Shown piece by piece: positions 1,000-60,263 of a stretch of 64,000 nucleotides of DNA. The notes under the pieces are model-generated. The model was not told where the DNA came from and searched no databases. It was given only the letters and a program-made list of their open reading frames with translations. The position numbers were made by a program, and so were the translations under genes. The DNA is taken from positions 31,434,001 through 31,498,000 of the forward strand of contig OZ024750.1 in the NCBI GenBank assembly GCA_964016885.1, in the 5' to 3' direction. Positions within the stretch are counted from its first letter, which is position 1. Each line of letters opens with the position of its first letter. This DNA comes from Eledone cirrhosa (taxonomy: Eukaryota).

Positions 1000-2280
1000 A
1001 TAGTGTACTTAGAGTATGTATTTAGAGCAGTGTGTGTACTTAGAGTATGTATTTAGAGTAGTGTGTGTAGTTAGAGTATGTATTTAGAGTAGTGTGTGTA
1101 GTTAGAGTATGTATTTAGAGTAGTGTGTGTAGTTAGAGTATGTATTTAGAGTAGTGTGTGTAGTTAGAGTATGTATTTAGAGTAGTGTGTGTAGTTAGAG
1201 TATGTATTTAGAGTAGTGTCTGTACTTAGAGTATGTATTTAGAGTACTGTGTATACTTAGAATATGTATTTAGAGTAGTGTGTGAACATAGAGTATGTAT
1301 TTAGAGTAGTGTGTAGTTAGAGTATGTATTTAGAGTAGTGTGTGAACATAGAGTATGTATTTAGAGAAGTGTGTGTACTTAGAGTATGTATTTATAGTAC
1401 TGTGTATACTTAGAGTATGTATTTAGAGTAGTGTGTGTAGTTAGAGTTTGTATTTAGAGTACTGCGTGTACTTAGAGTATGTATTTAGAGTAGTGTGTGT
1501 ACATAGAGTATGTATTTAGAGTAGTGTGTGTAGTTAGAGTATGTATTTAGAGTAGTGTGTGTAGTTAGAGTATGTATTTAGAGCAGTGTGTGTACTTAGA
1601 GTATGTATTTAGAGTAGTGTGTGTACATAGAGTATGTATTTAGAGTAGTGTGTGTAGTTAGAGTATGTATTTAGAGTAGTGTGTGTAGTTAGAGTATGTA
1701 TTTAGAGTACTGTGTGTACTTAGAGTATGTATTTAGAGTAGTGTGTGTACTTATAATATGTATTTAGAGTAGTGTGTGTACTTAGAGTATGTATTTAGAG
1801 AACTGTGTGTACTTAGAGTATGTATTTAGGGTAGTGTGTGTACTTAGAATATGTATTTAGAGTAGTGTGTGTACTTAGAGTATGTATTTAGAGTAGTGTG
1901 TGTAGTTATAGTTTGTATTTAGAGATGTGTGTGTACTTAGAGTATGTATTTATAGTGTGTGTAGTTAGAGTATGTATTTAGAGTAGTGTGTGTACTTAGA
2001 GTATGTATTTATAGTGTGTGTACTTAGAGTATGTATTTAGAGTAGTGTGTGTACTTAGAGTATGTATTGATAGTGTGTGTACTTCGAGTATGTATTTAGA
2101 GTAGTGTGTGTACTTAGAGTATGTATTTAGAGTACTGTGTGTACTTAGAGTATGTATTTAGAGTAGTGTGTGTACTTAGAGTATGTATTTAGAGTACTGT
2201 GTGTACTTAGAGTATGTATTTAGAGCAGTGTATGTACTTAGAGTATGTATTTAGAGTAGTGTATGTACTTAGAGTATGCA
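1000..2280. repeat. 29-bp minisatellite (gtgtgtacttagagtatgtatttagagta)n, roughly 44 copies
   Basis: Directly visible tandem unit built from two ttagagta sub-repeats. Confidence 0.95.
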
Positions 2281-2289
2281 TTTAACATG

Positions 2290-11018: not shown

Positions 11019-13765
11019 TATTTCTTTATTAACCACAAGGGTTTACATAAAGTAGACATTAAGGACAGTGCAGGACAATGCAGGACGGTACAAATGGGCA
11101 TTTCTGCGTGTAAAAAAACAAAAACAGAGGATGTAACAAAAATAACAATGAAAAATTCCCCAATAGGGGGGAGACTTCGGAGGGACATTTGTGGAGAAAG
11201 CCCAGTAAAAAGCCACAATGACCCTGACCACCAAGGCAAGTGCCCTCTCCCAGTTTTCCACCTTTAATTTACAGATATATACTCAGAGTAGGCCCATTCA
11301 CTCGGGCCATTCTTGCTTCTCTCAACCATCTTTCAACAAAATGCTGGGAAGAGAGCACTTCCCTCTCTACTCTGATTTTCCTTTTCAAATGAAATTTGAA
11401 AAAGTCAATCAGAGCATCACCGAAGAGGTAAGTGCTCGTCTTCAGCCCTTTCAAACGTGTCCACCATACTATCTCTTTCGCCATGGCCACCAGACAGATA
11501 AAAACTGCCTGCCCTTCCCGGCTAAAGGAGGAGGGCGGGGCAATCCTCACGATGGACTCAGATGATAGCTGGATCCGTCCTAAACGCGACAGCAGGTGTT
11601 CGACATAAACCCACAAGTCAGCAATTTTCGGACACTGGACGAGTGCGTGCAGGACGGTTTCGTCGCCCTGCGCGCATCTCGGACATGCCCGGCTGACGGC
11701 ACCTCCATGCCTGTAGAGTTTATCCCGAACTGGCAAGGCTCCTCGGTAGCACTGCCAGGCCAGAGATTTCTGGAAGTTGTCCATAGGCCCTGGCCCGAAA
11801 GTTCTTCCGAAGAGATTGGCTAGTTGATTTTCGTCGACGCCTAGAGTTTCCCCAAGTACGTCGTCGCTCTTCCCCTCCACTAATCCTCTATAGAACGCCG
11901 AGGTGGAGTTTCCACCGATCACATTGCCCGCTTGGTCGAGGGCTGTGAGCGCCTGAAGACATTCCAGTCTCCAGGCGCTCCCTCTCGGTCTTCGCTTGAC
12001 CCAGGACTGCAGCTCCGTCAAGGAAACGAGCTGGGGAAAAACGCGTCTAGCAAACGGCGACCACACCTGATCACCGTCAAGGAAGAGGTGGAGATGTCGT
12101 AGCCTGAGCGCGTGCCTGCGCATCATCAGCCACGGCATGCCCAGCCCTCCACGTAGCGGGTGTTGACAACAGATGGACCGCCTGACCATCGGAGCACGTC
12201 CCTTCCACAAAAAGCGAAAGAGCAAACGCTCCAGCGCAGTCAGGCGAGGCTTAGGACAAGGTACGACGGTTAGGCGGTAGCAGATGACAGACGCGATGTA
12301 CGCGTTAGCCACCTCCGCTCGACCTTTCAGGGATAGCTTCCTCTCCGCCCATTTCTGGGTGAGAGAAGCCACCCTGCTCGTCACCTCGTCCCAGTTTTTG
12401 TCCGTCTGGAGGTCCGGACCGAACCAGACCCCTAGCAATTTAACCGGTCCGTCCGTCCAGCGCCCGACGACGCTGTTGGACGGCATGGACCTGCCTCTCC
12501 AGGTGCCGAGCTGCAGGCCCACTGACTTTTCCTGGTTGATCATTGCTCCTGTCACCGCTTCGTATTCTCTTAGTGTAGTGCCGATCGCCTCGATGTGTTT
12601 GGCGTTCGACACCACTACGGTGACATCGTCCGCATATGCTGACACGGATCTTCCGCATCCTAGTTCGCGCGGGACTCCCCTCAACGTCTCCAGTTTGTGC
12701 AGTAATGGCTCGAGAGTCAATACGTACAAGAGGGACGAGAGGGGACATCCTTGGCGGACCGAGCGCATGATGTTGAACGGTTCCGACAGGTGACCGTTCA
12801 CTCTCACCACAGAGCAGATGTCGCTGTGCATGGCAGCGATCCAGCCTCTGAAGACGGGCCCAAAGCCAGCCGCCCTCAGGACTGCCGCTAGGTAACGATG
12901 GTCGACCCTATCGAAAGCTTTCGACTGATCTAAATTGATCAAGGACCCACCCGTGCCAGGTTCCCTAGCTACCCTCTCTACGATGTATCGCATGAGGTGG
13001 AGGTTGTCGTGGATGGATCTGTCGGGAATGGCGCATGTCTGCGCCTCTCCCACCAGACCACCAACGACAAGCGCCAACCTCTTTGCTAGCACCTTGGCCA
13101 AAATCTTAAACTCTGTGTTTAGCAGAGTTATGGGCCGGAAATTTTCTATGTTATCCCCCTTGTTCGGATCCTTTCTCAGCAGTGCCACCGCTCCTCGGCT
13201 CACAGAACTGGGAATTCTCCCGTTCTGTTGCCAGTTGCAGTAGACGTCCGCCAAGAGGCCTCCGAACAAGTCTGGCATCTGTACGTAAAGTTCATAGGGC
13301 AGACCATCCAAACCAGGCGATTTACCCCTTGTGCAGCCAGTCATTGCCTCCCTTACTTCAGCGGCTGTTATCGGCTTTTCGCAACACTTCGCCTCAGTGG
13401 CCGAGAGCCGCGGCAGTCCGTCGAGGTAGACACTAAAGTCCATCCCTCTACCCGGCCCCCCGCTGCCCCCGAACAGCTGAGCGAAGTGTCGCTGAAAAGC
13501 TTCACACATTTGCTCGGGATCGAGTAGCATGCGCCCGTCGTGGTCCACCAAAGACCGGATCGTGGCTTTGTTGCCACGACGCGCCTCCGCCACTCGGGCC
13601 CATTGAACGGCTTTCGTCCCCTCGTGTCTGAGAGCACGCACCCTAGCTCTGACAACGCAGCCTTCGTGCTTTGCATTGAAGAATTGGTCAAGGGCCAATT
13701 TCGCCGCAAGCACGTCGGTCGCAATGCCTTTGCTAAGCGCCTCGTCTAATTTTCTAACTAGTTCT
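10968..13765 (-). mobile_element. 5'-truncated Tx1/L1-clade LINE with 3' UTR and (TTA)n tail
   Basis: GC-rich island; AATAAA (minus strand, 11025-11030) followed by a (TTA)n run; 5' end abuts a (TA)n microsatellite. Confidence 0.9.
11269..13764 (-). CDS. Partial ORF2: reverse transcriptase plus C-terminal zinc finger; endonuclease lost by 5' truncation
   Basis: KSPGLDG, FRPITLLN, DQSKAFDRV, VRQGCPLS, YADD, CPRC..ETVLHALVQC; about 830 codons without a stop. The ORF-track start at 13866 is a microsatellite artefact. Confidence 0.93.
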   Translation of the reverse strand, partial: ELVRKLDEALSKGIATDVLAAKLALDQFFNAKHEGCVVRARVRALRHEGTKAVQWARVAEARRGNKATIRSLVDHDGRMLLDPEQMCEAFQRHFAQLFGGSGGPGRGMDFSVYLDGLPRLSATEAKCCEKPITAAEVREAMTGCTRGKSPGLDGLPYELYVQMPDLFGGLLADVYCNWQQNGRIPSSVSRGAVALLRKDPNKGDNIENFRPITLLNTEFKILAKVLAKRLALVVGGLVGEAQTCAIPDRSIHDNLHLMRYIVERVAREPGTGGSLINLDQSKAFDRVDHRYLAAVLRAAGFGPVFRGWIAAMHSDICSVVRVNGHLSEPFNIMRSVRQGCPLSSLLYVLTLEPLLHKLETLRGVPRELGCGRSVSAYADDVTVVVSNAKHIEAIGTTLREYEAVTGAMINQEKSVGLQLGTWRGRSMPSNSVVGRWTDGPVKLLGVWFGPDLQTDKNWDEVTSRVASLTQKWAERKLSLKGRAEVANAYIASVICYRLTVVPCPKPRLTALERLLFRFLWKGRAPMVRRSICCQHPLRGGLGMPWLMMRRHALRLRHLHLFLDGDQVWSPFARRVFPQLVSLTELQSWVKRRPRGSAWRLECLQALTALDQAGNVIGGNSTSAFYRGLVEGKSDDVLGETLGVDENQLANLFGRTFGPGPMDNFQKSLAWQCYRGALPVRDKLYRHGGAVSRACPRCAQGDETVLHALVQCPKIADLWVYVEHLLSRLGRIQLSSESIVRIAPPSSFSREGQAVFICLVAMAKEIVWWTRLKGLKTSTYLFGDALIDFFKFHLKRKIRVEREVLSSQHFVERWLREARMARVNGPTLSIYL

Positions 13766-14027
13766 GTATATATATATATATGTATGCCAGTATATGTATA
13801 TATGTGCGTTATGTATGTGTATATATGATATGTATATATGATATATATATATACATGCACACACACATATCCCTCTCTCTCTCTGTATATATATATATAT
13901 ATATATATGTGTGTATATATATATTATATATATATATAATATATATATATATATAATATATATAATATATATATATACAATATATAATATATATATATAT
14001 AATATATAATATATATATATATATATA

Positions 14028-15538: not shown

Positions 15539-17022
15539 CGTAGTTTAGAAAGCCACAACAATGCAGATGGGAAATCTCGAGGTAGGAAGTGAATGATAGA
15601 TAGGAGAAATAGGAGAAAGTGAAAATTGAGAGAGACAAAGATGAAAACAAAACAAAGGTAGAAGGGTTACCGTAGTGGAGATTTAATCCCAATATTTCGG
15701 GCTCACGCCCATCAACGGGGGAAAGTTCCAAAAAGGGGGGGAACAGGCTAAGCCGGAGAAAGTTGTGATGTCGTTAAAACAGGAATGCCGTTATGGGGAG
15801 AAAATTTAAATGAGGGGAAAGAATGCGCGTGCGCGTGATAGGCTGTGGCAAAAGCTACTGACCAAATGGGTTAAATCAAGAGGGTGCGCTAGCGTGTGAA
15901 AGTCGTAAAATATGTGTGTGTAAATATATATGTGTGTGTAACTGTGTGTGTATATGTGTAAGTGTGTATATGTGTGAGTGCGTGTGTGTGTGAAAGATAG
16001 TGGGCTGTAGAAGCTGGAAATCAAAGGGTGTGAAAGGTGGTAGGTTGTAAAACATGTGTGCGTGTATAAATATAGATGTGTGTGTGTATGCGTATGGGTA
16101 TGCATATACGTGCGTGTGTGTGAAAATAGCAGGCCGTAAGGGCTGTGAATGGTCACTATGGTTAAATTAGCCATGTCAGCTCATTTCTCTCAGCCCGGTT
16201 GTTAAGTGGGGGTCTGAGGTTCTTAATAACAAGTGCTTCCTTTATCCTTAAGGATCCGATGCTGCGTTCAGTCGCTAGGACTGTGACCAAGGGTCTACCC
16301 TGTGGGTTTCCGCATTTAAGGATGTGTTTACGGAAGGAAGATGCGTTGGTGTTGATATGTTCCTTGATACGAACATGTAGGGGTCGGATGGTGCTACCTA
16401 TGTAAAACTTGTTACATTTATCGCATTGAATCTTATATACGACATAGGTGCGTAGGCAATCTGCCCCCCGTATCGGGCAGTTGCTGAGGGAACACGTCCC
16501 ATCTGACTCGTCGGGTTTGTTGGAAAGGCATCTTCGCAGCGAAGGTCCTGTGTGGGCGAAATGTATGTCAAGTCCCTCCGTCCGTATGGCCCTGCGGATG
16601 GCGTTCGTGGTATATTCACTCAGGTGGGGGATTTTAAAGAAGCACCTGCTTTTATTTAAGTTTCTAGTGGGTGTCTGTTTATTGGATCTGGGGTCTCTAA
16701 TTCCGTTAATCAGTCGCTTGGGATATCCATTAGACTTGAGTAGATTACGGAATTGCGTGGTATGGGTGAGACCACCCATCGGGTCGCTGCATCTGTTAGT
16801 GGTCCGTGTCAGTTCATTTAGGACATAGCCTCTCTTAGCGTTGTTGGGGAGGGCTGAGTTGTAATGTACAAATAAGTCCTTGCACGCTGCTTTGCGGTAG
16901 AAGGTGGTGTTTATGTCTCCTTCTTCCGAGATGTTGATACGGAAGTGGAGGAGGGCGAGTGACCCGTCTTCTCCTGGGTGTTCGATGGTGAAATCGACGT
17001 GATGGTCAGTATCGTGTAATGT
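15510..17022 (-). mobile_element. 5'-truncated Penelope-like element (Neptune/Nematis-type linker) with 3' UTR ending in (TA)n
   Basis: RT thumb and GIY-YIG ORF, (CA)-rich 3' UTR, degenerate HHR at 15687-15722 (gggc-gtga-gccc GAAA ta tt). Confidence 0.88.
16162..17022 (-). CDS. Partial PLE polyprotein: RT C-terminus/thumb, Cys linker and GIY-YIG endonuclease
   Basis: Open frame DFTIEHP..SLALL..TTFYRK..VHYNSALP..LKSNGYP..CSLSNCPI..C..VVYKIQCDKCNKFYIGSTIRPLHVRIKEH..KEALVI..PPLN; extends upstream of the ORF-track Met. Confidence 0.9.
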   Translation of the reverse strand, partial: TLHDTDHHVDFTIEHPGEDGSLALLHFRINISEEGDINTTFYRKAACKDLFVHYNSALPNNAKRGYVLNELTRTTNRCSDPMGGLTHTTQFRNLLKSNGYPKRLINGIRDPRSNKQTPTRNLNKSRCFFKIPHLSEYTTNAIRRAIRTEGLDIHFAHTGPSLRRCLSNKPDESDGTCSLSNCPIRGADCLRTYVVYKIQCDKCNKFYIGSTIRPLHVRIKEHINTNASSFRKHILKCGNPQGRPLVTVLATERSIGSLRIKEALVIKNLRPPLNNRAERNELTWLI

Positions 17023-23806: not shown

Positions 23807-24749
23807 ATTAATAAGGTAATGAATTCTTTTACAATGGAATCAGCTCGAATGAGGAAAAAATATCCCCTGAGCAGTGTATAAATTCATATGTAAGTGATGA
23901 AACACAGATACCAACACATCTGTATATATATTGCAAAATAAACATTTAGCCAAGGAGAGCGGGAGATGATATTCCTACACTCTTTTAACTCGAAACATAT
24001 TTGGATCTTAAAGTCTAAACTTATCTACGGAACAGGTTTGATTTTGAAATTTAAATGGGTCTAAACATCACGGCCTTTTGGCAATACAGTTCGTCTCCGT
24101 TGATTTATTATTTTAAATCGATATGGACAAACTGTAGTATAATAATTAGTATACTTCAATCTGGCTAAATTTTTCTTTTGCAATATATATACAGATGTGT
24201 TGGTATCTGTGTTTCATCACTTACATATTAATTTATACACTGCTCAGGGGATATTTTTTCCTCATTCGAGCTGATTCCATTGTAAAAGAATTCATTACCT
24301 TATTAATTTTAACTGCTCCTAGTTTGAGCTGCAAACCGTCCCATATATACGACTGTTATTTCTAGCAGTACGGTTATGAGACTAGTTAGATACTGTAAAG
24401 CCATGTGCGCCACGCAGCCTTTTAAATTATTTAGAAGTGAAGCATATCAATTTGTCTCTGGATGTTTACTGAGGAGAGCGGGAGATGATATTCCTACACT
24501 TTTTTAACTCGAAACATATTTGGATCTTAAAGTCTAAACTTATCTACGGAACAGGTTTGATTTTGAAATTTAAATGTGTCTAAACATCTCGGCCTTTTGG
24601 CAATAGAGTTCGTCTCCGTTGATTTATTATTTTAAATCGATATGGACAAACTGTAGTATAATAATTAGTATACTTCAATCTGGCTAAATTTTTCTTTTGC
24701 AATATATATACAGATGTGTTGGTATCTGTGTTTCATCACTTACATATTA

Positions 24750-24755
<6 letters not shown>
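23807..24755 (+). mobile_element. Retrozyme-like element: ~1.5 copies of a 519-nt non-coding unit plus an inverted 146-bp arm, within (TA)n
   Basis: 23953-24236 is repeated at 24472-24755 (offset 519); 23807-23952 is the reverse complement of ~24162-24306. Confidence 0.85.
24461..24588 (+). ncRNA. Complete type I hammerhead with a long stem III
   Basis: GAUGUUUA CUGAGGA GAG..CUC GAAA CAUAUUUGGAU...AUUUAAAUGUG UC UAAACAUC; 8-bp stem I; predicted GUC cleavage after 24580. Confidence 0.85.
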
Positions 24756-24796
<41 letters not shown>

Positions 24797-25085: not shown

Positions 25086-25421
25086 ACCTCGTAAGGATGA
25101 AAGGCAAAGTTAACCTCGGCACAATTTGAACTGAGACCATGAAGGGCCGTAACTCTTTGTTGTAAAGCATGGCGTCCGACCCTCTACCGATACTGCCAAT
25201 CCATCGCCCTATTGCCAGAAATAATAATAATAATTCTTTCTACATTTGGCACAAGGCCAGCAATTACCCAGTACATTACTGGTACTTTATTTTATCGACC
25301 CCGTAAGGATGAAAGGCAAAGTTAACCTCGGCGGGATTTGAACTCAGAATGGCAAGGGCTGTAACTCTAAGCGTCAAAGCATAGCGTCCGACCCTCTACC
25401 GATACTGCCAACCCACCGCCC
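25086..25421 (-). mobile_element. Two tandem Nin SINEs (subfamily B-like)
   Basis: Both heads are followed by tattgccaga(a/t)ataataat, a TSD-like duplication. Confidence 0.88.
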
Positions 25422-25429
25422 TATTGCCA

Positions 25430-27589: not shown

Positions 27590-28825
27590 ATATTGTTATA
27601 TTTGGGGAGGGTCATATTTGCGTAATATTGCCAGAATTAATAACAGAACACACTCACTGTTTGGTTGGTTTTCGCTTCTCGCTGTCTTTTATATATATAT
27701 ATCTGCGATCTAGCTTACTCGGTCCTCAATGTTGCCATTGACTGACCGGCGGTCAAAAATAATACAGATACAATATAGACAAACACATATATATATAGTT
27801 TACATAAATCTTTCGTTGCACATCTGCAACATCGTCAGTGGTGTTATATTCATTGTTCCTCCTGTTGTGTTGTATGTCTACGCCATTTTTTTTGTTCAGT
27901 CTGTCTATATATTTATTTATTTATTTGCTTGTTTGTTTATCTTATTTTATTTTGTCTTCTTTGCGCATGCGTTTGCGTGTGTGTATAGTGTTATGTGTGA
28001 TGTGTGATGTGTGACTAGTGTGTATAGTGTTGTCTGCTGGGTGACTAGTGTGTGTTTATGTGCTTGTGTATGTATTTATTTATCTTATTTTATTTAATTT
28101 AATTTACTTATTTATTTATACTTCTCTTAGGTCAGTGTTGTTTGTTTGGGTGTTGTTGTTGTTCCACTCATTCTAAACAGAAAGAATGAGTGGAACAACA
28201 ACAACACCCAAACAAACAACACTGACCTAAGAGAAGTATAAATAAATAAGTAAATTAAATTAAATAAAATAAGATAAATAAATACATACACAAGCACATA
28301 AACACACACTAGTCACCCAGCAGACAACACTATACACACTAGTCACACATCACACATCACACATAACACTATACACACACGCAAACGCATGCGCAAAGAA
28401 GACAAAATAAAATAAGATAAACAAACAAGCAAATAAATAAATAAATATATAGACAGACTGAACAAAAAAAAATGGCGTAGACATACAACACAACAGGAGG
28501 AACAATGAATATAACACCACTGACGATGTTGCAGATGTGCAACGAAAGATTTATGTAAACTATATATATATGTGTTTGTCTATATTGTATCTGTATTATT
28601 TTTGACCGCCGGTCAGTCAATGGCAACATTGAGGACCGAGTAAGCTAGATCGCAGATATATATATATAAAAGACAGCGAGAAGCGAAAACCAACCAAACA
28701 GTGAGTGTGTTCTGTTATTAATTCTGGCAATATTACGCAAATATGACCCTCCCCAAATATAACAATATCTGTTTCGACACACGATTTCATATAAAAAACC
28801 TCGCAAAACTAATTCATCGCCGCTA
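27590..28825 (+). mobile_element. Family E PLE-like 3' end as a 585/586-bp inverted repeat with an 8-nt spacer, plus tail
   Basis: 27590-28174 vs 28183-28768; HHR core CUGACGA U GUUGCA-gaug-UGCAAC GAAA at 28520-28547, mirrored at 27811-27838. Confidence 0.88.
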
Positions 28826-30965: not shown

Positions 30966-31179
30966 TTTGCTGTTCAACTGCCAACAGTCAGAGCTAATGA
31001 AAATATATGATATTTAATAAAATATACAATGACTGATAAATATTGCTGTTTATCAGATGTATAAAATGCATATACATTATTGCTTTATCTATCTTACCCT
31101 CATTTATAAGTCTATGTCTATATATGTACTTAAATAAGATCAATATTCACCCATAATCATTTAATTACTTATATTTTAA

Positions 31180-31684
31180 ATAACAGTTTCTATTTTAGGA
31201 ACAAGGCCAGCAATTATCCAGTACATTACAGGTACTTTATTTTATCGACCCCGTAAGGATGAAAGGCAAAGTTAACCTCGACCGGATTTGAACTCAGATC
31301 ATAAAGGGACGTAACTATGCTGGAAAGCATGTCCGACTCTCTACCGATACTGCCAATTCACCGCCCTTATCTTTTATTTTAAATAACTGTTTCTACTTTT
31401 GGCACAAGGCCAGCAATTACCCAGAGCATTACTGGTACTTTATTTTATCGACCCCGTAAGGAGGAAAGGCAAAGTTAACCTCGGCGGGATTTGAACTCAG
31501 AATGGCAAGGGCCGTAACTCTATACGTCAAAGCATGGCATCCGACCCTCTACCGATACTGCCAATCCACCGCCCTTTTTATTTTAAATAATTGTTTCTAC
31601 TTTAGGCACAAGGCCAGCAACTACCCAGTGCATTACTGGTACTTTATTTTATCGACCCCGTAAGGATGAAAGGCAAAGTCAACC
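31180..31684 (-). mobile_element. Head-to-tail array of three Nin SINEs (subfamily A, subfamily B, truncated)
   Basis: Each copy is preceded by tattttaaataa. Confidence 0.9.
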
Positions 31685-32258
31685 TATAATGATATATAAT
31701 AATGTCTTATACTACAAATCATTATATTTATAACTACACTCATAATATTAAAATTATGCGAAAAAATATATCCACTCGTATATGTAAATACAGTGTATAT
31801 TTCATTCAAATATATTGTAATTGCTTTAATGAATTAATAGTTTATATTTTAATACAATGCATTATAATTCTCGTCTAAATATTATAAATACTTCCATAGT
31901 CTTAAAATATATATAAAAATAATTAAATAAGTAAATAAGTATTATTATATCATTCCTTCTAAATCCATGTAGCTATCTTTGGGTGTATATATGTATATTT
32001 CTATAAATAATTCTAAAATAACTCTACAATAATATTTTCAAATTTAATAGCAAACCCTTAAAAAAAAAAAATTAAATAAGTATTTAAAATTTATCTAGCG
32101 TCTAAACGTAACGGCTCTTTTCAGTTTTTAACTTTATCCTCATTAGCATATTTCCCTTGAGTTTTGAACATTTGTACATTTCTATCCACTCTCCTCACTG
32201 AACATATAACATTAAGTTCACATGAAGATATGTCACTATGTTAACACCAATTATTATA

Positions 32259-36623: not shown

Positions 36624-37680
36624 CTTGAAAAGTCTGGGTACAATGAGAAGATAGCTTACAATGAGCAAACCAGAAGCGCAACGCCGCTACACCCACACAG
36701 ACGCTTAGAAATGCATATAGACGATGACACCCCACCTAGAATAAATACCAGGCAAAGACCATCGTTAGCCGGCATGACTCCCAAGGAGATAAAGCCATAC
36801 CCTCCAACCCCACTAAGGCCTCGGAATCTCGCACATGACTCCGCAGTAATAGAGACCCTAGACTGAACGGCAATAGAATCGCAGGAACTCCAATGACAAA
36901 TACGCCTGACCAAAACGAACTCACACACCCACCAAGCCACAACAACCCCACTAAACACCGTACAGCCCGAAGCCAACCCGTGACATGGTACAACGCCCCG
37001 TACTCTATACACGTTACCAGCAATATACCGGGAAACTTCTTCAGAGCTCTTGACCAATTCTTCCCATCTACACATATAATCCACAAGCTCTTTAATAGGC
37101 ACACTGTCAAATTCTCTTTCTCCACAACACCAAATCTAGCATACACAAATAGGACAAACATACGTAAACACATGGAAGCACCACAACCAACCATTAGTAC
37201 AACCCAAAACAACACCACACTGACAACACACCACATCAAACCAAATACCTGCTAGCTCCATAGAGAATACGAACAACCGGCAACTTAACAGCAAACCCAT
37301 AACCCCCAACTGCAACTGCAAAAAGTGAGTACAATGCCCATTGAACAGGGAGTGCCTCATTAAAAACATTATTTACCAGTGCGATGTCACAGCCGGCCGA
37401 AAAGAGTACTCTTACATAGGGGCAAACTCGACTACATTGAAAGAATGTTGGTATAACCACAAAAGCTCTTTCAACCACAAACCCAAACGCTCCCAAACCA
37501 AACTTGCGGACTTGATCTGGGACCTCAAAGACAAGAACATGGGATACCAGATCAAAGGGTCAGTTAAAAGACGCGTGGCCCAACTCTCTAACGACAGAAA
37601 CCACTGTAGGTTATGCCTGGCCGAGGTGGTCGAGATCATTAGGTTGAAATCGGCCATAAACTCGAGATCAGACATAATAA
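36624..37680 (+). pseudogene. Hydra-clade-like PLE ORF remnant (RT thumb end, CxC linker, GIY-YIG), frameshifted
   Basis: LEKSGYNEK; WYNAPYSIHVTSNIPGNF..LDQFFP..HKLFNRHTVKFSFSTTPNL; CNCKK*VQCPLNRECL..IIYQCDV..YIG..WYNHKSSF..IWDLK..CRLCLAE..INSRSD. Confidence 0.85.
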
Positions 37681-37761
37681 TTGTTTCTACTTTTGGCACA
37701 GGCCAGCAATTATCCCAGTGTATTACTGGTACTTAAACTACAAACACACCAGGAAGAACAC

Positions 37762-38780: not shown

Positions 38781-38865
38781 GGTCTGATGAGCCGCGGTTT
38801 ACAGAGTCGGGCTACATCGATACAGATCGAACCATGAGCTGATCAGTGGCGAAACGCGCGTCACC
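38781..38865 (+). ncRNA. Type I hammerhead in the 3' pLTR of the upstream PLE
   Basis: GGU CUGAUGA GCCGC...GUGGC GAAA CGCGCG UC ACC. Confidence 0.88.
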
Positions 38866-38949
38866 AACCATAAAACGTAATGAAGGAGTAATCAATCGTC
38901 CTTGTTATTTTATTTTACTATATATATTAAATATATATATATATATATA

Positions 38950-39312
38950 ACCAAAAGTTAAACAAGGTTCATTGACTAATCAATGAATAAAGTTTTACAA
39001 TAGATTAGAAGCACTCAACAAAAAGTTTTCTGGAGTTATTAATATTAATTCAAAATATTAATAAATATAGACATTCATGTAATCAAATATATTTGATTAT
39101 ATATATTTCGGAGGTACTGTGCTGTTTCTTCAGTACATCCTCATCCCGACTGCCAAGACTGGTATTGAACCATCAGCACAGTTGAGGTTTGTCATACATC
39201 AATTTTATCTGATGAGGACGTACTGAAGAAACAACACAGTACCTCCGAAATATATATAATAAAATATATTTGATTACATGAATGTCTATATTTATTAATA
39301 TTTTGAATTAAT
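38950..39312. mobile_element. Fold-back pLTR (~100-bp arms) between (TA)n tracts
   Basis: 39045-39145 vs 39211-39312. Confidence 0.85.
39203..39264 (+). ncRNA. Intact type I hammerhead
   Basis: UUUUAU CUGAUGA GGACGUACUG..CAGUACCUCC GAAA UAUAUA UA AUAAAA. Confidence 0.88.
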
Positions 39313-39347
39313 ATATATATATATATTTATATCTATATATCTATATA

Positions 39348-39476
<129 letters not shown>

Positions 39477-39477
39477 A

Positions 39478-39805
39478 GAATTATTATTAAAGGACTTTTA
39501 ACATCTGAAATTACGTGGGCGAAAAACTCAAGAGCACACTCTTTGTCCGTTCCCATGTCGATTCAATTTGGATTGCCTCGGAAACATAATCTTATTATGT
39601 AACAAGCTGTCTGATGATGTCACGGCACTGGGCACACCGAACCGTGTGGCCACTGTTGTCATTGAAATATGTATCACAGTATTATTATTAAAGGACTTTA
39701 ATATCTGAAATTACTTCGCTTTCTTATTCGATATATACCCCGTCATTCCTATGTGGAAAAAATACGTTGAGTGCTTGATTTGATTTGCATCAATATTTAC
39801 CTTAA
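39478..39805 (+). mobile_element. Terminally redundant unit (offset 201 nt) with a hammerhead at 39607-39679 and a tail
   Basis: attattattaaaggacttt..atctgaaattac at 39480 and 39681; CUGU CUGAUGA..long stem II..GAAA UAUGUA UC ACAG. Confidence 0.8.
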
Positions 39806-44709: not shown

Positions 44710-44898
44710 AATAATTGTTTCTACATTTGGCAAAAGGCCAGCAAATACCTAGTGCATTACTGGTACTTTATTTTATCGACCCCGTAAGGATGAAAGGCAA
44801 AGTTAACCTCGGCGGGATTTGAACTCAGAATGGTAAGGGCCGTAACTCAATGTGTCAAAGCATAGCGTCCGACCCTCTACCGATAATGCCAATCCACC
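44710..44898 (-). mobile_element. Nin SINE, subfamily B
   Basis: Near-consensus sequence. Confidence 0.9.
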
Positions 44899-45371
44899 AA
44901 TGCTTTTTTATTTGATGAGTTTGTTGTAGAGAAGTTTTAGACCGGAAACGGACAATACATACAAAAAAAAAAAAAAATGAATTAAGAATGAAGGAAAGTG
45001 GCAATATATAATATTTGTTATCACTGCATAAAAATACATTTATTTGTACGAAAAAAAAAACGAAAACAATCAAACAAAACAAAATAAAACAAAAAACAAG
45101 AAAAACTTAGCGTTGAAGTAGAATATATTCTTTATTTTTACAGTACAGTACTTATGTACTGGAGTCTAGTAACTAGACGAACCGGAGTTTTCTATTATAA
45201 GTATGTTCTATCGGATGTGAGGTATTTCAGTTTGGAATATTCCGATGAGTAAGACATTTCCAACTAAACTGGTCAGAGGTGTTTGACAAAGTTCAAAACA
45301 CAAGGTATTTTTATTTTAGAAAATTAGTTTCAAGTAAAAGCAAAGTACTAGTGTACTGAATATAATGTTGC

Positions 45372-58977: not shown

Positions 58978-59509
58978 ACAGGATAACAAATTATTGTTAT
59001 AGGTAGTCCACTTAGATGTAGTCCAGTTAGGGTACTCTGAGTAGTGGATAATACTAATGCTTAGCTAAGTTTGACTCAACAAGACGTTTCCATAGTGATG
59101 CTGCGAGTACGCTACATCTAATATAGACCACTTAAATAAGGAATCCACTTTACACCACATAAAAATTACCATCCTCACTACAATGAAAATATTTTATCTG
59201 TCAGATAATAAATAAAACTTATGGTCAGCAAACCTACAGTAAAGTATTTGAGTATTGTTATTTTTGTCCTGATTTAATGCCACTAATATATATAGAAGCC
59301 ATGCCTGTGTATATCCTTCATTCTCGCATGCTCCGATGAATAGACTAGTTATAGCAAAATATTGGTGTTCGATTGACGCAAAAGCAGGCGGGTAGCGATC
59401 TCTGGACCTACCAGTTCAGAGAAACAATTGTCAGCAATGTGAAAAAAGCCCTTATTGTATAGCAAACCATGTCACTCTTCTTTCTTGATTTATTATATAT
59501 ATATATATA

Positions 59510-60065
59510 ATGTATTACAGTGAACTGCGGAATACGCTTAATTCCGATCTTTGTATACTTAACGAGCTCCAGATTGTTGAGCTAATAAATTCGAATGAGA
59601 GCCGTTATTTGATGCAAATAACACGTGATTTCGCCCTACTCTGGGCAGCGTGTGTATTAGCCTTCTCTCTATCCATGAGGTTAGATGTGTCGTGAATAGT
59701 GTTCGCATTTGCTGACTGAGGATCCTGTGACATGTTATACTTCACATATTAGTGGTGAAACGAAGCGAGATTCGTATCAGCAAACCTATAGTTATAAGGT
59801 TGGTAATTTAAAACTCTAACTCAGAGATTTGATTCTGACTTAGGTTTTTTTTCTATCTAATTGCTAAACCTGTAGATATTGTTCTCTATACAGTAACGGT
59901 AAAAATCACATGTAATAATTCTTTACACACATCTCACTGTGTAACACACTTCTCTTTGTGTATTATATTTGCATTTGAGCTCACAAGGAAATGCTCTATT
60001 CTTCTTCGAGCTAATACTATTATTATTATTACAGTGAACTGCGGAATACTCTTAATTCCGATCTT

Positions 60066-60071
<6 letters not shown>
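59510..60071 (+). mobile_element. Retrozyme-like 514-nt unit with 45-nt terminal redundancy, between (TA)n tracts
   Basis: tattacagtgaactgcggaatac.cttaattccgatctttgtata at 59513 and 60027. Confidence 0.85.
59708..59784 (+). ncRNA. Complete type I hammerhead
   Basis: UUUGCUGA CUGAGGA U CC...GG U GAAA CGAA-gcgaga-UUCG UA UCAGCAAA; 8-bp stem I; predicted GUA cleavage after 59776. Confidence 0.88.
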
Positions 60072-60121
<50 letters not shown>

Positions 60122-60215
60122 TATATCATATATATCATATATCTATATACATATATATATATATATATACGATACTTTTGGCTGTATACATTAATATTAT
60201 GAGAAATTACAAATA

Positions 60216-60259
<44 letters not shown>

Positions 60260-60263
<4 letters not shown>

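What the first reader, a model, noticed from the sequence alone, without database searches (positions are those of the whole stretch)
59510..60071. Cleanest retrozyme candidate: 514-nt unit with a central well-formed hammerhead and 45-nt terminal redundancy
No meaningful ORF, an HHR with 8-bp stem I and 4-bp stem III that should work as a monomer, and both ends in (TA)n. With the sequence-unrelated 519-nt unit it shares size, the CUGAGGA core and an 8-bp stem I, suggesting a distinct ~0.5-kb class of genome-encoded, viroid-like circular RNAs mobilised by PLE machinery.
Basis: partly seen in the sequence, partly recalled or inferred. Interest (0 to 1): 0.82.

Follow-up and report, generated by a model that had tools for sequence, protein, structure and literature searches.

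The report
Penelope-copied hammerhead retrozyme, damaged copy
This is one deletion-bearing copy of a 549-base non-coding repeat with a self-cutting RNA motif; its many genomic copies end at two fixed sites, each followed by a hairpin also seen in a coding Penelope-type jumping gene, which suggests that enzyme copies a likely circular RNA from both sides of a DNA break.

Summary
The repeat (44/45, period 514) and a type I hammerhead are there, but three first-reader points fail. The family unit is about 549 nt; 514 comes from a 37-nt deletion whose junction occurs once in the genome. The 45-nt redundancy is only this copy's 5' truncation point. The hammerhead has a U·U closing pair and is predicted to misfold. 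Copies are non-coding, sit in (TA)n, are 5'-truncated and end at two fixed sites 95 nt apart. All 82 classifiable head-to-head insertions pair one site with the other. 72 of 75 arms run through the ribozyme cut site. Both sites are followed by a GCUC..GAGC hairpin, as in the unrelated 519-nt family and, at one site clearly, an intact Hydra-clade Penelope-like element. The downstream hairpin lies in the next unit, which favours a circular template, but no RNA data were available and arms stop at 2.3 units. Verdict: a new family of animal non-LTR retrozyme (non-autonomous Penelope-like element), not a distinct 0.5-kb viroid-like class. This single-ribozyme copy cannot release a monomer. The scan found the same architecture before on other DNA of this genome.

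The parts
59513..60067 (+). Single-armed insertion of the 549-nt family: last 41-45 nt of one unit plus one whole unit carrying a 37-nt deletion
59494..59509 (.). (TA)n target at the 5' side; the junction falls in the unit's own (TAT)n run, so no target duplication can be resolved
   Evidence: sequence
59513..59553 (+). 5'-truncated upstream unit (the 'terminal redundancy'), ending at an internal copy of start site B
59564..59583 (+). Hairpin B (GAGCUC..GAGCU stem) just 3' of site B, i.e. at the start of the next unit; predicted RT-positioning element
59595..59597 (+). 3-nt microhomology marking the private 37-nt deletion
59708..59784 (+). Type I hammerhead, U10.1·U11.1 variant, predicted cut after 59776; competing fold predicted
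59799..59875 (+). Intron-like segment (donor-like GT, branch-like CTAAAC, AG); inferred from sequence only; no listed deletion removes it
59960..59971 (+). Start site A (..TTTG): second fixed end of the family, read through in this copy
59977..60012 (+). Hairpin A just 3' of site A; upper stem weakened in this copy (-9.8 against -15.5 kcal/mol for the context in L003)
60056..60067 (+). Start site B (..GATCTTTG), the fixed 3' end of this insertion
60068..60260 (.). (TA)n target at the 3' side

Best explanation
This is one deletion-bearing, single-ribozyme copy of a 549-nt non-coding hammerhead repeat family whose insertions carry the Penelope-like footprint and were likely written into (TA)n DNA by a Hydra-clade Penelope-like RT/endonuclease copying a likely circular monomer RNA. 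Proposed cycle: (1, inferred) the few loci with two hammerheads in tandem are transcribed, cut twice and ligated into a monomer circle, in which the predicted competing fold would protect against re-cutting; (2, inferred) the borrowed protein binds the two GCUC..GAGC hairpins and cuts both strands of a (TA)n target; (3, ends shown, priming inferred) one DNA end starts at site A and the other at site B, 95 nt apart; (4, shown as product) both cDNAs run 5'-ward through the ribozyme junction, stop after about 300 nt on average and are joined head to head, or one arm is missing as here. The window copy is one B-started arm that ran just over one unit; with one hammerhead it cannot release a monomer and is likely a dead end.
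For: Fixed ends: 154 exact B ends and 99 exact A ends followed by TA, reversed controls 0; of 262 arms, 115 end at B, 104 at A, 43 elsewhere. Head-to-head pairs: 82 A+B, 0 A+A, 0 B+B, 30 with an unclassified end, of 112; same result in sets chosen by B (47 AB, 0 BB, 12 other), by A (16 AB, 0 AA, 3 other) and by neither end (20 AB, 18 other). This matches the PLE pattern of partial tandem, inverted 5'-truncated copy and one-sided tail (PMC8557442) and the two internal RT starts, both-strand cutting and need for RNA 3' of the starts shown in vitro (PMC11167929). Non-coding: 30 of 30. Read-through of the cut site: 72 of 75 arms pass, 3 end within 5 nt against 2.8 expected, so cut linear monomers were not the template. 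Partner class: 10 fetched copies with 659-719-aa open frames bearing RWK, DKT and CxCx5C motifs that define Hydra; their ends lie in (TA)n at +33-39 (9) and +111-129 (7) after the cut, 14 of 30 read on. GCUC..GAGC starts 7-12 nt after 5 of 6 start sites in three sequence-unrelated families, imperfect at the sixth; background 0.002 per site. For a circle: hairpin B lies in the next unit, so a linear template for a B arm longer than one unit needs two junctions. Only 2 of 293 arms have two junctions and they could template at most about 690 nt, yet 19 other B arms exceed 700 nt. 8 of 270 arms hold two whole hammerheads, enough to release monomers. Units and arms of one insertion differ by 2.7-2.8% against 4.5-5.0% from other loci; 11 insertion-private variants are shared between arms or consecutive units after dropping 9 rows from duplicated stretches. 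The sister 519-nt family, with the same two-end pattern, has arms of 7-9 units.
Against: No RNA evidence of expression, cutting or circles. Arms fall off after one unit: 1 of 49 junction-selected arms crosses a second junction against 15% for constant drop-off (p 0.003); longest 1237 nt; this fits a finite linear precursor as well as displacement after one lap. The hammerhead is predicted to misfold by 5-14 kcal/mol in all 62 copies tested, against 2.8 for the Hydra element. 5 of the 11 shared private variants hit the hammerhead core or stems, including an A9 change in both arms of L288, which suggests templates with weak ribozymes were copied or arms were homogenised later. In vitro, ribozyme-dead PLE RNA inserts normally and uncut RNA is the main substrate (PMC11167929). 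That hairpin B is required is inferred from conservation only, and the motif was noticed after the fact. No sequence similarity to the Hydra element examined. Two other hammerhead families with two ends lack the GCUC..GAGC stem. Genome DNA searches scored only 40 of about 1100 candidates, so longer source arrays may be missed.
Confidence: 0.6

Rival explanations
1. Same non-autonomous PLE, but the template is an uncut linear read-through transcript of partial tandems (or two such RNAs held by a protein dimer); the hammerhead is weak and not needed for copying.
For: Read-through of the cut site fits equally. Drop-off after one unit. Predicted misfold. Ribozyme-damaging variants shared by both arms. 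Uncut RNA is the dominant substrate in vitro (PMC11167929).
Against: Hammerhead core and stems show no lineage-shared change apart from the 10.1/11.1 positions, so source lineages kept the ribozyme. 19 B arms are longer than the two known two-junction loci could template if hairpin B is needed. Consecutive units share private variants in L154, L301, L302.
Confidence: 0.28
2. The unit is the pLTR or truncated 3' end of a coding PLE, and the copies are ordinary 5'-truncated PLE insertions.
For: Insertion footprint is that of coding PLEs; intron-like segment after the hammerhead, as a donor-like site also follows the Hydra element's hammerhead.
Against: 30 of 30 unit starts follow the unit's own tail; all 82 of 293 arms with more than one segment continue into the same unit; among 95 mapped ends no shared sequence other than known repeats and duplicates abuts the 5' junction; no blastn match to 40 Hydra loci except the one chance neighbour.
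Confidence: 0.05
3. One reading: a distinct 0.5-kb class of viroid-like RNA circles, with this locus producing a 514-nt circle that may replicate as RNA.
For: The unit folds more stably as a circle than shuffles (z -2.8 for 514, -3.0 for 549; 40 shuffles each). Several families of 466-549 nt share the genome.
Against: 514 is a one-off deletion; one hammerhead only; no minus-strand hammerhead found in the unit; ends fixed, not permuted; published sizes run 51-972 bp; no A>G or other strand-biased scar among private variants (A>G 34, T>C 42, equal per exposure; site-capped test p 0.2-0.6).
Confidence: 0.04
4. The mobilising enzyme is another TA-targeting PLE clade (Neptune or Naiad type) rather than Hydra.
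For: Naiads also favour (TA)n (PMC8557442); a Poseidon-type GIY-YIG fragment lies in the window; no sequence link to Hydra.
Against: Long tail (78 nt in Hydra, 74 and 95 nt in the non-coding families) against the usual 30-40 nt, shared hairpin, and a 10.1·11.1-mismatched hammerhead with GUA and a donor-like site in the Hydra element. The paper reports Naiads as lacking canonical hammerheads and present only as remnants in cephalopods.
Confidence: 0.1

Closest known systems
Metazoan non-LTR retrozymes (Cervera and de la Pena 2020, PMC7229834, passages and Discussion read; Li, Clavereau and Pollet 2026, 10.64898/2026.07.22.740005, parts 1-3 of 5 read)
   Same: Non-coding, low GC (36%), type I hammerhead once per unit, head-to-tail junctions, proposed PLE mobilisation and circular intermediate; 549 nt lies inside the reported 51-972 bp.
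   Different: Mostly shorter than one unit and dispersed, at most 2.3 units; two fixed start sites and strict A+B two-armed insertions are not described in the parts read; 4-bp stem III with U·U-closed stem II; hammerhead predicted to be blocked by self-pairing, whereas the 2020 paper predicts a free fold for most metazoan circles.
Hydra-clade EN+ Penelope-like elements (Craig et al. 2021, PMC8557442, passages read)
   Same: (TA)n targeting, hammerhead, partial tandem plus inverted 5'-truncated copy, tail on one end; in this genome also a long tail and the start-site hairpin.
   Different: No ORF; no detectable sequence similarity to the Hydra family examined; tail 95 nt against 78 nt here and 30-40 nt in the paper.
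Poseidon PAc of Anolis (Frangieh et al. 2024, PMC11167929, parts 1-2 of 4 read)
   Same: Two internal RT start sites define the tail; both DNA strands are cut and extended; RNA 3' of the starts is required; RT is indifferent to the ribozyme site.
   Different: Autonomous; that paper saw no difference in start site between the two strands, whereas here the two arms always use different sites (82 of 82).
Non-autonomous Chlamys elements such as MRC1 (PMC8557442, passage read)
   Same: Non-coding PLE derivatives with pLTR-like partial tandems and head-to-tail copies.
   Different: Those resemble their autonomous partner at the 3' end and their clade mostly lacks hammerheads.
U10.1·U11.1 hammerhead variants (Perreault et al. 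2011, PMC3088659, passages read)
   Same: Stem II of two base pairs starting with a U·U mismatch is a known natural variant.
   Different: Here it is shared by several unrelated repeat families of one genome (484 matches).

Membership tests
Metazoan non-LTR retrozyme | Type I hammerhead with conserved core and three stems | tested here: met
   U·U closing variant; 86 of 149 copies pass my intactness filter
Metazoan non-LTR retrozyme | No protein coding, no LTR-type structure | tested here: met
   longest ORF 61 aa; 30 of 30 starts follow own tail
Metazoan non-LTR retrozyme | [quoted passage not shown] 2026): family | tested here: met
   8 of 270 arms hold two whole hammerheads
Metazoan non-LTR retrozyme | Same criterion: this copy | tested here: not met
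   one hammerhead; it is a 'monomer' derivative in that paper's terms
Metazoan non-LTR retrozyme | Self-cleavage | not testable with these tools
   folding predicts a competing structure; no assay
Metazoan non-LTR retrozyme | Expressed as monomeric circular RNA | not testable with these tools
   no RNA holder listed
Penelope-like element (insertion footprint) | Fixed 3' end, 5' truncation, partial tandem, inverted 5'-truncated copy, one-sided tail | tested here: met
Penelope-like element (autonomous) | RT plus GIY-YIG ORF between pLTRs | tested here: not met
Hydra-clade dependence | Shared cis signals with an autonomous Hydra element | tested here: inconclusive
   shared TA target, long tail and hairpin stem; no blastn similarity; one Hydra family examined
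Viroid or viroid-like replicon | RNA-to-RNA replication, usually ribozymes in both polarities | tested here: inconclusive
   no minus-strand hammerhead in the unit by my scan; replication not testable
Plant LTR retrozyme | Type III hammerhead in LTRs, 4-bp target duplication | tested here: not met
   type I; ends in (TA)n

The most novel reading that the evidence does not exclude
Sequence-unrelated hammerhead circles in this genome have kept or converged on a two-hairpin address of the Hydra-clade PLE protein. Each hairpin positions one RT, one per DNA end, so every two-armed insertion uses site A on one strand and site B on the other. Because the second hairpin lies beyond the point where insertions end, only a ribozyme-made circle (or a rare multimer) is a complete template. 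This would be genomic evidence that hammerheads in PLEs serve to restore the start signal by circularisation.
Probability: 0.45. Interest if true: 0.75.

Novelty: new member of a known kind. Interest (0 to 1): 0.5.

Why it matters
Why PLEs carry hammerheads, and whether their RNA is copied as a circle, is open: circles were proposed (PMC4209133, PMC7229834) while the one in vitro study found cleavage unnecessary (PMC11167929). This family offers a small defined test substrate: a 549-nt unit with two mapped start sites, two short hairpins and a candidate intact Hydra protein in the same genome. The strict A+B rule says the two DNA ends are primed asymmetrically. I did not find that rule or the hairpins in the papers returned (supplements unread, subscription journals mostly not searched). 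The locus itself is ordinary: a damaged copy of a known kind of element, and the scan noted the architecture before in other families.

Tried and rejected
Rfam at gathering score over the window and at E<=10 over 59400-60200: no hammerhead family matched. Sequencing runs: no RNA holder listed. Three runs of unknown kind from one sample were laid as contigs; they hold the family and the segment missing here, but say nothing on expression. Autonomous partner by sequence: tblastn of window PLE fragments on 170 loci gave hits that I read as chance neighbours; L190 lies beside a Hydra ORF but is separated by (TA)n and that element's own inverted end; blastn against 40 Hydra loci was blank apart from that neighbour; the hairpin pattern returned mostly the family itself in the first 100 of 966 matches (the 30 loci were not screened for ORFs). 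Pfam gave no hit for the 719-aa protein, so its clade rests on motifs. Recurrent differences between first and second tandem unit, expected of a fixed heterodimer template: at most 3 of 15 pairs, at homopolymer edges. Spliced copies: none of the listed deletions of 15 nt or more matches the intron-like segment (a deletion that split an alignment could be missed). An apparent excess of 5' ends at unit positions 1-25 is partly due to my 22-nt hit filter. Rows dropped: three segmental duplicates (L146-L148) before drop-off and variant counts; four of 99 ends too short to map; nine shared variants from L012/L014, L306/L307 and L279. The idea that the longest arms carry ribozyme-weakening changes rests on two loci (L301, L302) and is not claimed.

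Full report
Observation. The 45-nt direct repeat (44 of 45, period 514) and the type I hammerhead with 8-bp stem I, 4-bp stem III and predicted cut after 59776 are present, the longest ATG frame is 61 aa and both ends lie in (TA)n. Stem II is not canonical: U10.1·U11.1, two C-G pairs, then an internal loop. That variant is known (PMC3088659, passages) and is the majority form in the family (126 of 158). Folding puts the catalytic form 8.7-8.8 kcal/mol above the ensemble in this copy and 12.8-13.0 in L003, median 10.5 over 62 copies, against 6.9 for the 519-nt unit and 2.8 for the coding element. Such models ignore tertiary contacts, so this lowers but does not exclude activity. Rfam does not detect it.

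The family. The window lies in a 3.0-Gb animal genome. A DNA search gave 87 matches from 40 scored of 1126 candidates; a hairpin pattern gave 966 matches against 55 for the control, most of the first 100 from this family, so I estimate several hundred insertions. The unit is 549 nt in L003. The window copy lacks 37 nt at a 3-nt microhomology, and the junction occurs once in the genome. The size shared with the 519-nt unit is therefore partly accidental, and published families span 51-972 bp.

Ends. In unit coordinates ending at the fixed 3' end, the cut is at 260. Copies end at site B (549; 154 exact matches) or site A (454; 99 exact matches); both read TTTG then TA repeats. Of 262 arms in 300 loci, 115 end at B, 104 at A and 43 elsewhere (loci were partly chosen by these ends). 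5' ends are scattered; mean arm 294 nt in 144 arms chosen by end only. Arms longer than one unit always continue into the same unit, so the '45-nt redundancy' is one value of a spread from 33 to 698 nt. Of 112 head-to-head pairs, 82 are A+B, none A+A or B+B, and 30 have an unclassified end; this holds in each selection set. This is the PLE pattern (PMC8557442; PMC3846280, passages), and two internal RT starts as the cause of the tail were shown in vitro (PMC11167929).

Partner. An abundant coding PLE with intact frames up to 719 aa has the RWK, DKT and CxCx5C motifs of the Hydra clade. It has its own type I hammerhead with a 10.1·11.1 mismatch and GUA, a donor-like site behind it, and two ends 78 nt apart in (TA)n; L261 and L263 each show one end of each kind on opposite arms. 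The 519-nt family has two ends 74 nt apart. A GCUC..GAGC stem begins 7-12 nt 3' of both 549 sites, both 519 sites and the first Hydra site, and imperfectly at the second; background 0.002 per position. The stems show no lineage-shared change in the 549 family, but they are near-invariant, so no covariation supports them. I noted this before looking up earlier findings (note); two earlier findings report the same hairpins. No sequence similarity links the unit to this Hydra family, and two other families lack the stem.

Template. 72 of 75 arms pass the cut site and 3 stop there against 2.8 expected: the template was uncut or re-ligated. Arms and units of one insertion are closer to each other than to other loci, and 11 private variants are shared within insertions against 169 found in one segment only, three of them between consecutive units; later gene conversion is not excluded. 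If hairpin B is needed, a linear template for a B arm over one unit must contain two junctions. Only L301 and L302 do (2 of 293 arms) and could give about 690 nt at most, while 19 other B arms exceed 700 nt. A circle needs only two hammerheads, present in 8 of 270 arms. Against: drop-off rises after one unit (1 of 49 cross a second junction, p 0.003), the longest arm is 2.3 units, the ribozyme is predicted to misfold, five shared variants damage it, and in vitro cleavage was dispensable. The sister 519-nt family does reach 7-9 units, some capped by an inverted arm. I put the PLE-dependent, non-coding reading at about 0.9 and the circle within it at about 0.65.

Comparison and verdict. It works like, and at family level meets the tested sequence criteria of, a metazoan non-LTR retrozyme, which a 2026 preprint argues are non-autonomous PLE derivatives; cleavage and circles were not testable. 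The window copy fails the two-hammerhead criterion and cannot release a monomer. The strict two-site rule and the shared hairpins were not found in the papers returned, but the scan reported them on other DNA of this genome; no earlier finding resembles this sequence. New member of a known kind; interest 0.5.

Noticed in passing
window 23807-24756: 519-nt hammerhead family: inverted arm plus 1.5-unit arm, two ends 74 nt apart, long stem III; elsewhere arms of 7-9 units (L309, L310) with array-wide private variants.
   Followed up: partly
L316 and L172-L200: Several unrelated hammerhead families share the U·U plus two C-G stem II start and mostly a GUA cut triplet, many followed by a donor-like AG|GT; one has a 466-nt period; two have ends about 108-110 nt apart.
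   Followed up: partly
L261-L270: Abundant Hydra-clade PLE with intact 712-719-aa frames in 9 of 10 fetched copies, no Pfam hit; a subfamily has C in place of U4 in its hammerhead core.
   Followed up: partly
window 27590-28768: Near-perfect palindrome of about 590-nt arms with an 8-nt spacer, each arm holding a CUGACGA..GAAA core, flanked by TA repeats; looks like a very young head-to-head insertion of another family.
   Followed up: no
window 36839-37736 and 38784-39700: Broken Hydra-like PLE fragments followed by several minimal hammerhead cores (38784, 39209, 39611), one with an inverted partial copy.
   Followed up: no
window 16162-17022 (-): C-terminal PLE fragment with GIY-YIG (PF01541, E 1e-4).
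   Followed up: no
window 11269-13923 (-): 884-aa open frame with RVT_1 and zf-RVT, a 5'-truncated LINE of high GC.
   Followed up: no
window 30960 (-), 32265, 36586, 46543 (-): Further minimal hammerhead-like cores.
   Followed up: no
window, e.g. 25229-25425, 31179-31782, 44710-44906: About 200-nt dispersed repeat in at least 20 copies on both strands; elsewhere it abuts the (TAT)n run of the 549-nt unit in several loci, as if inserted there.
   Followed up: no
window 1003-2284: 31-nt minisatellite, 42 copies, strongly G/T-skewed.
   Followed up: no
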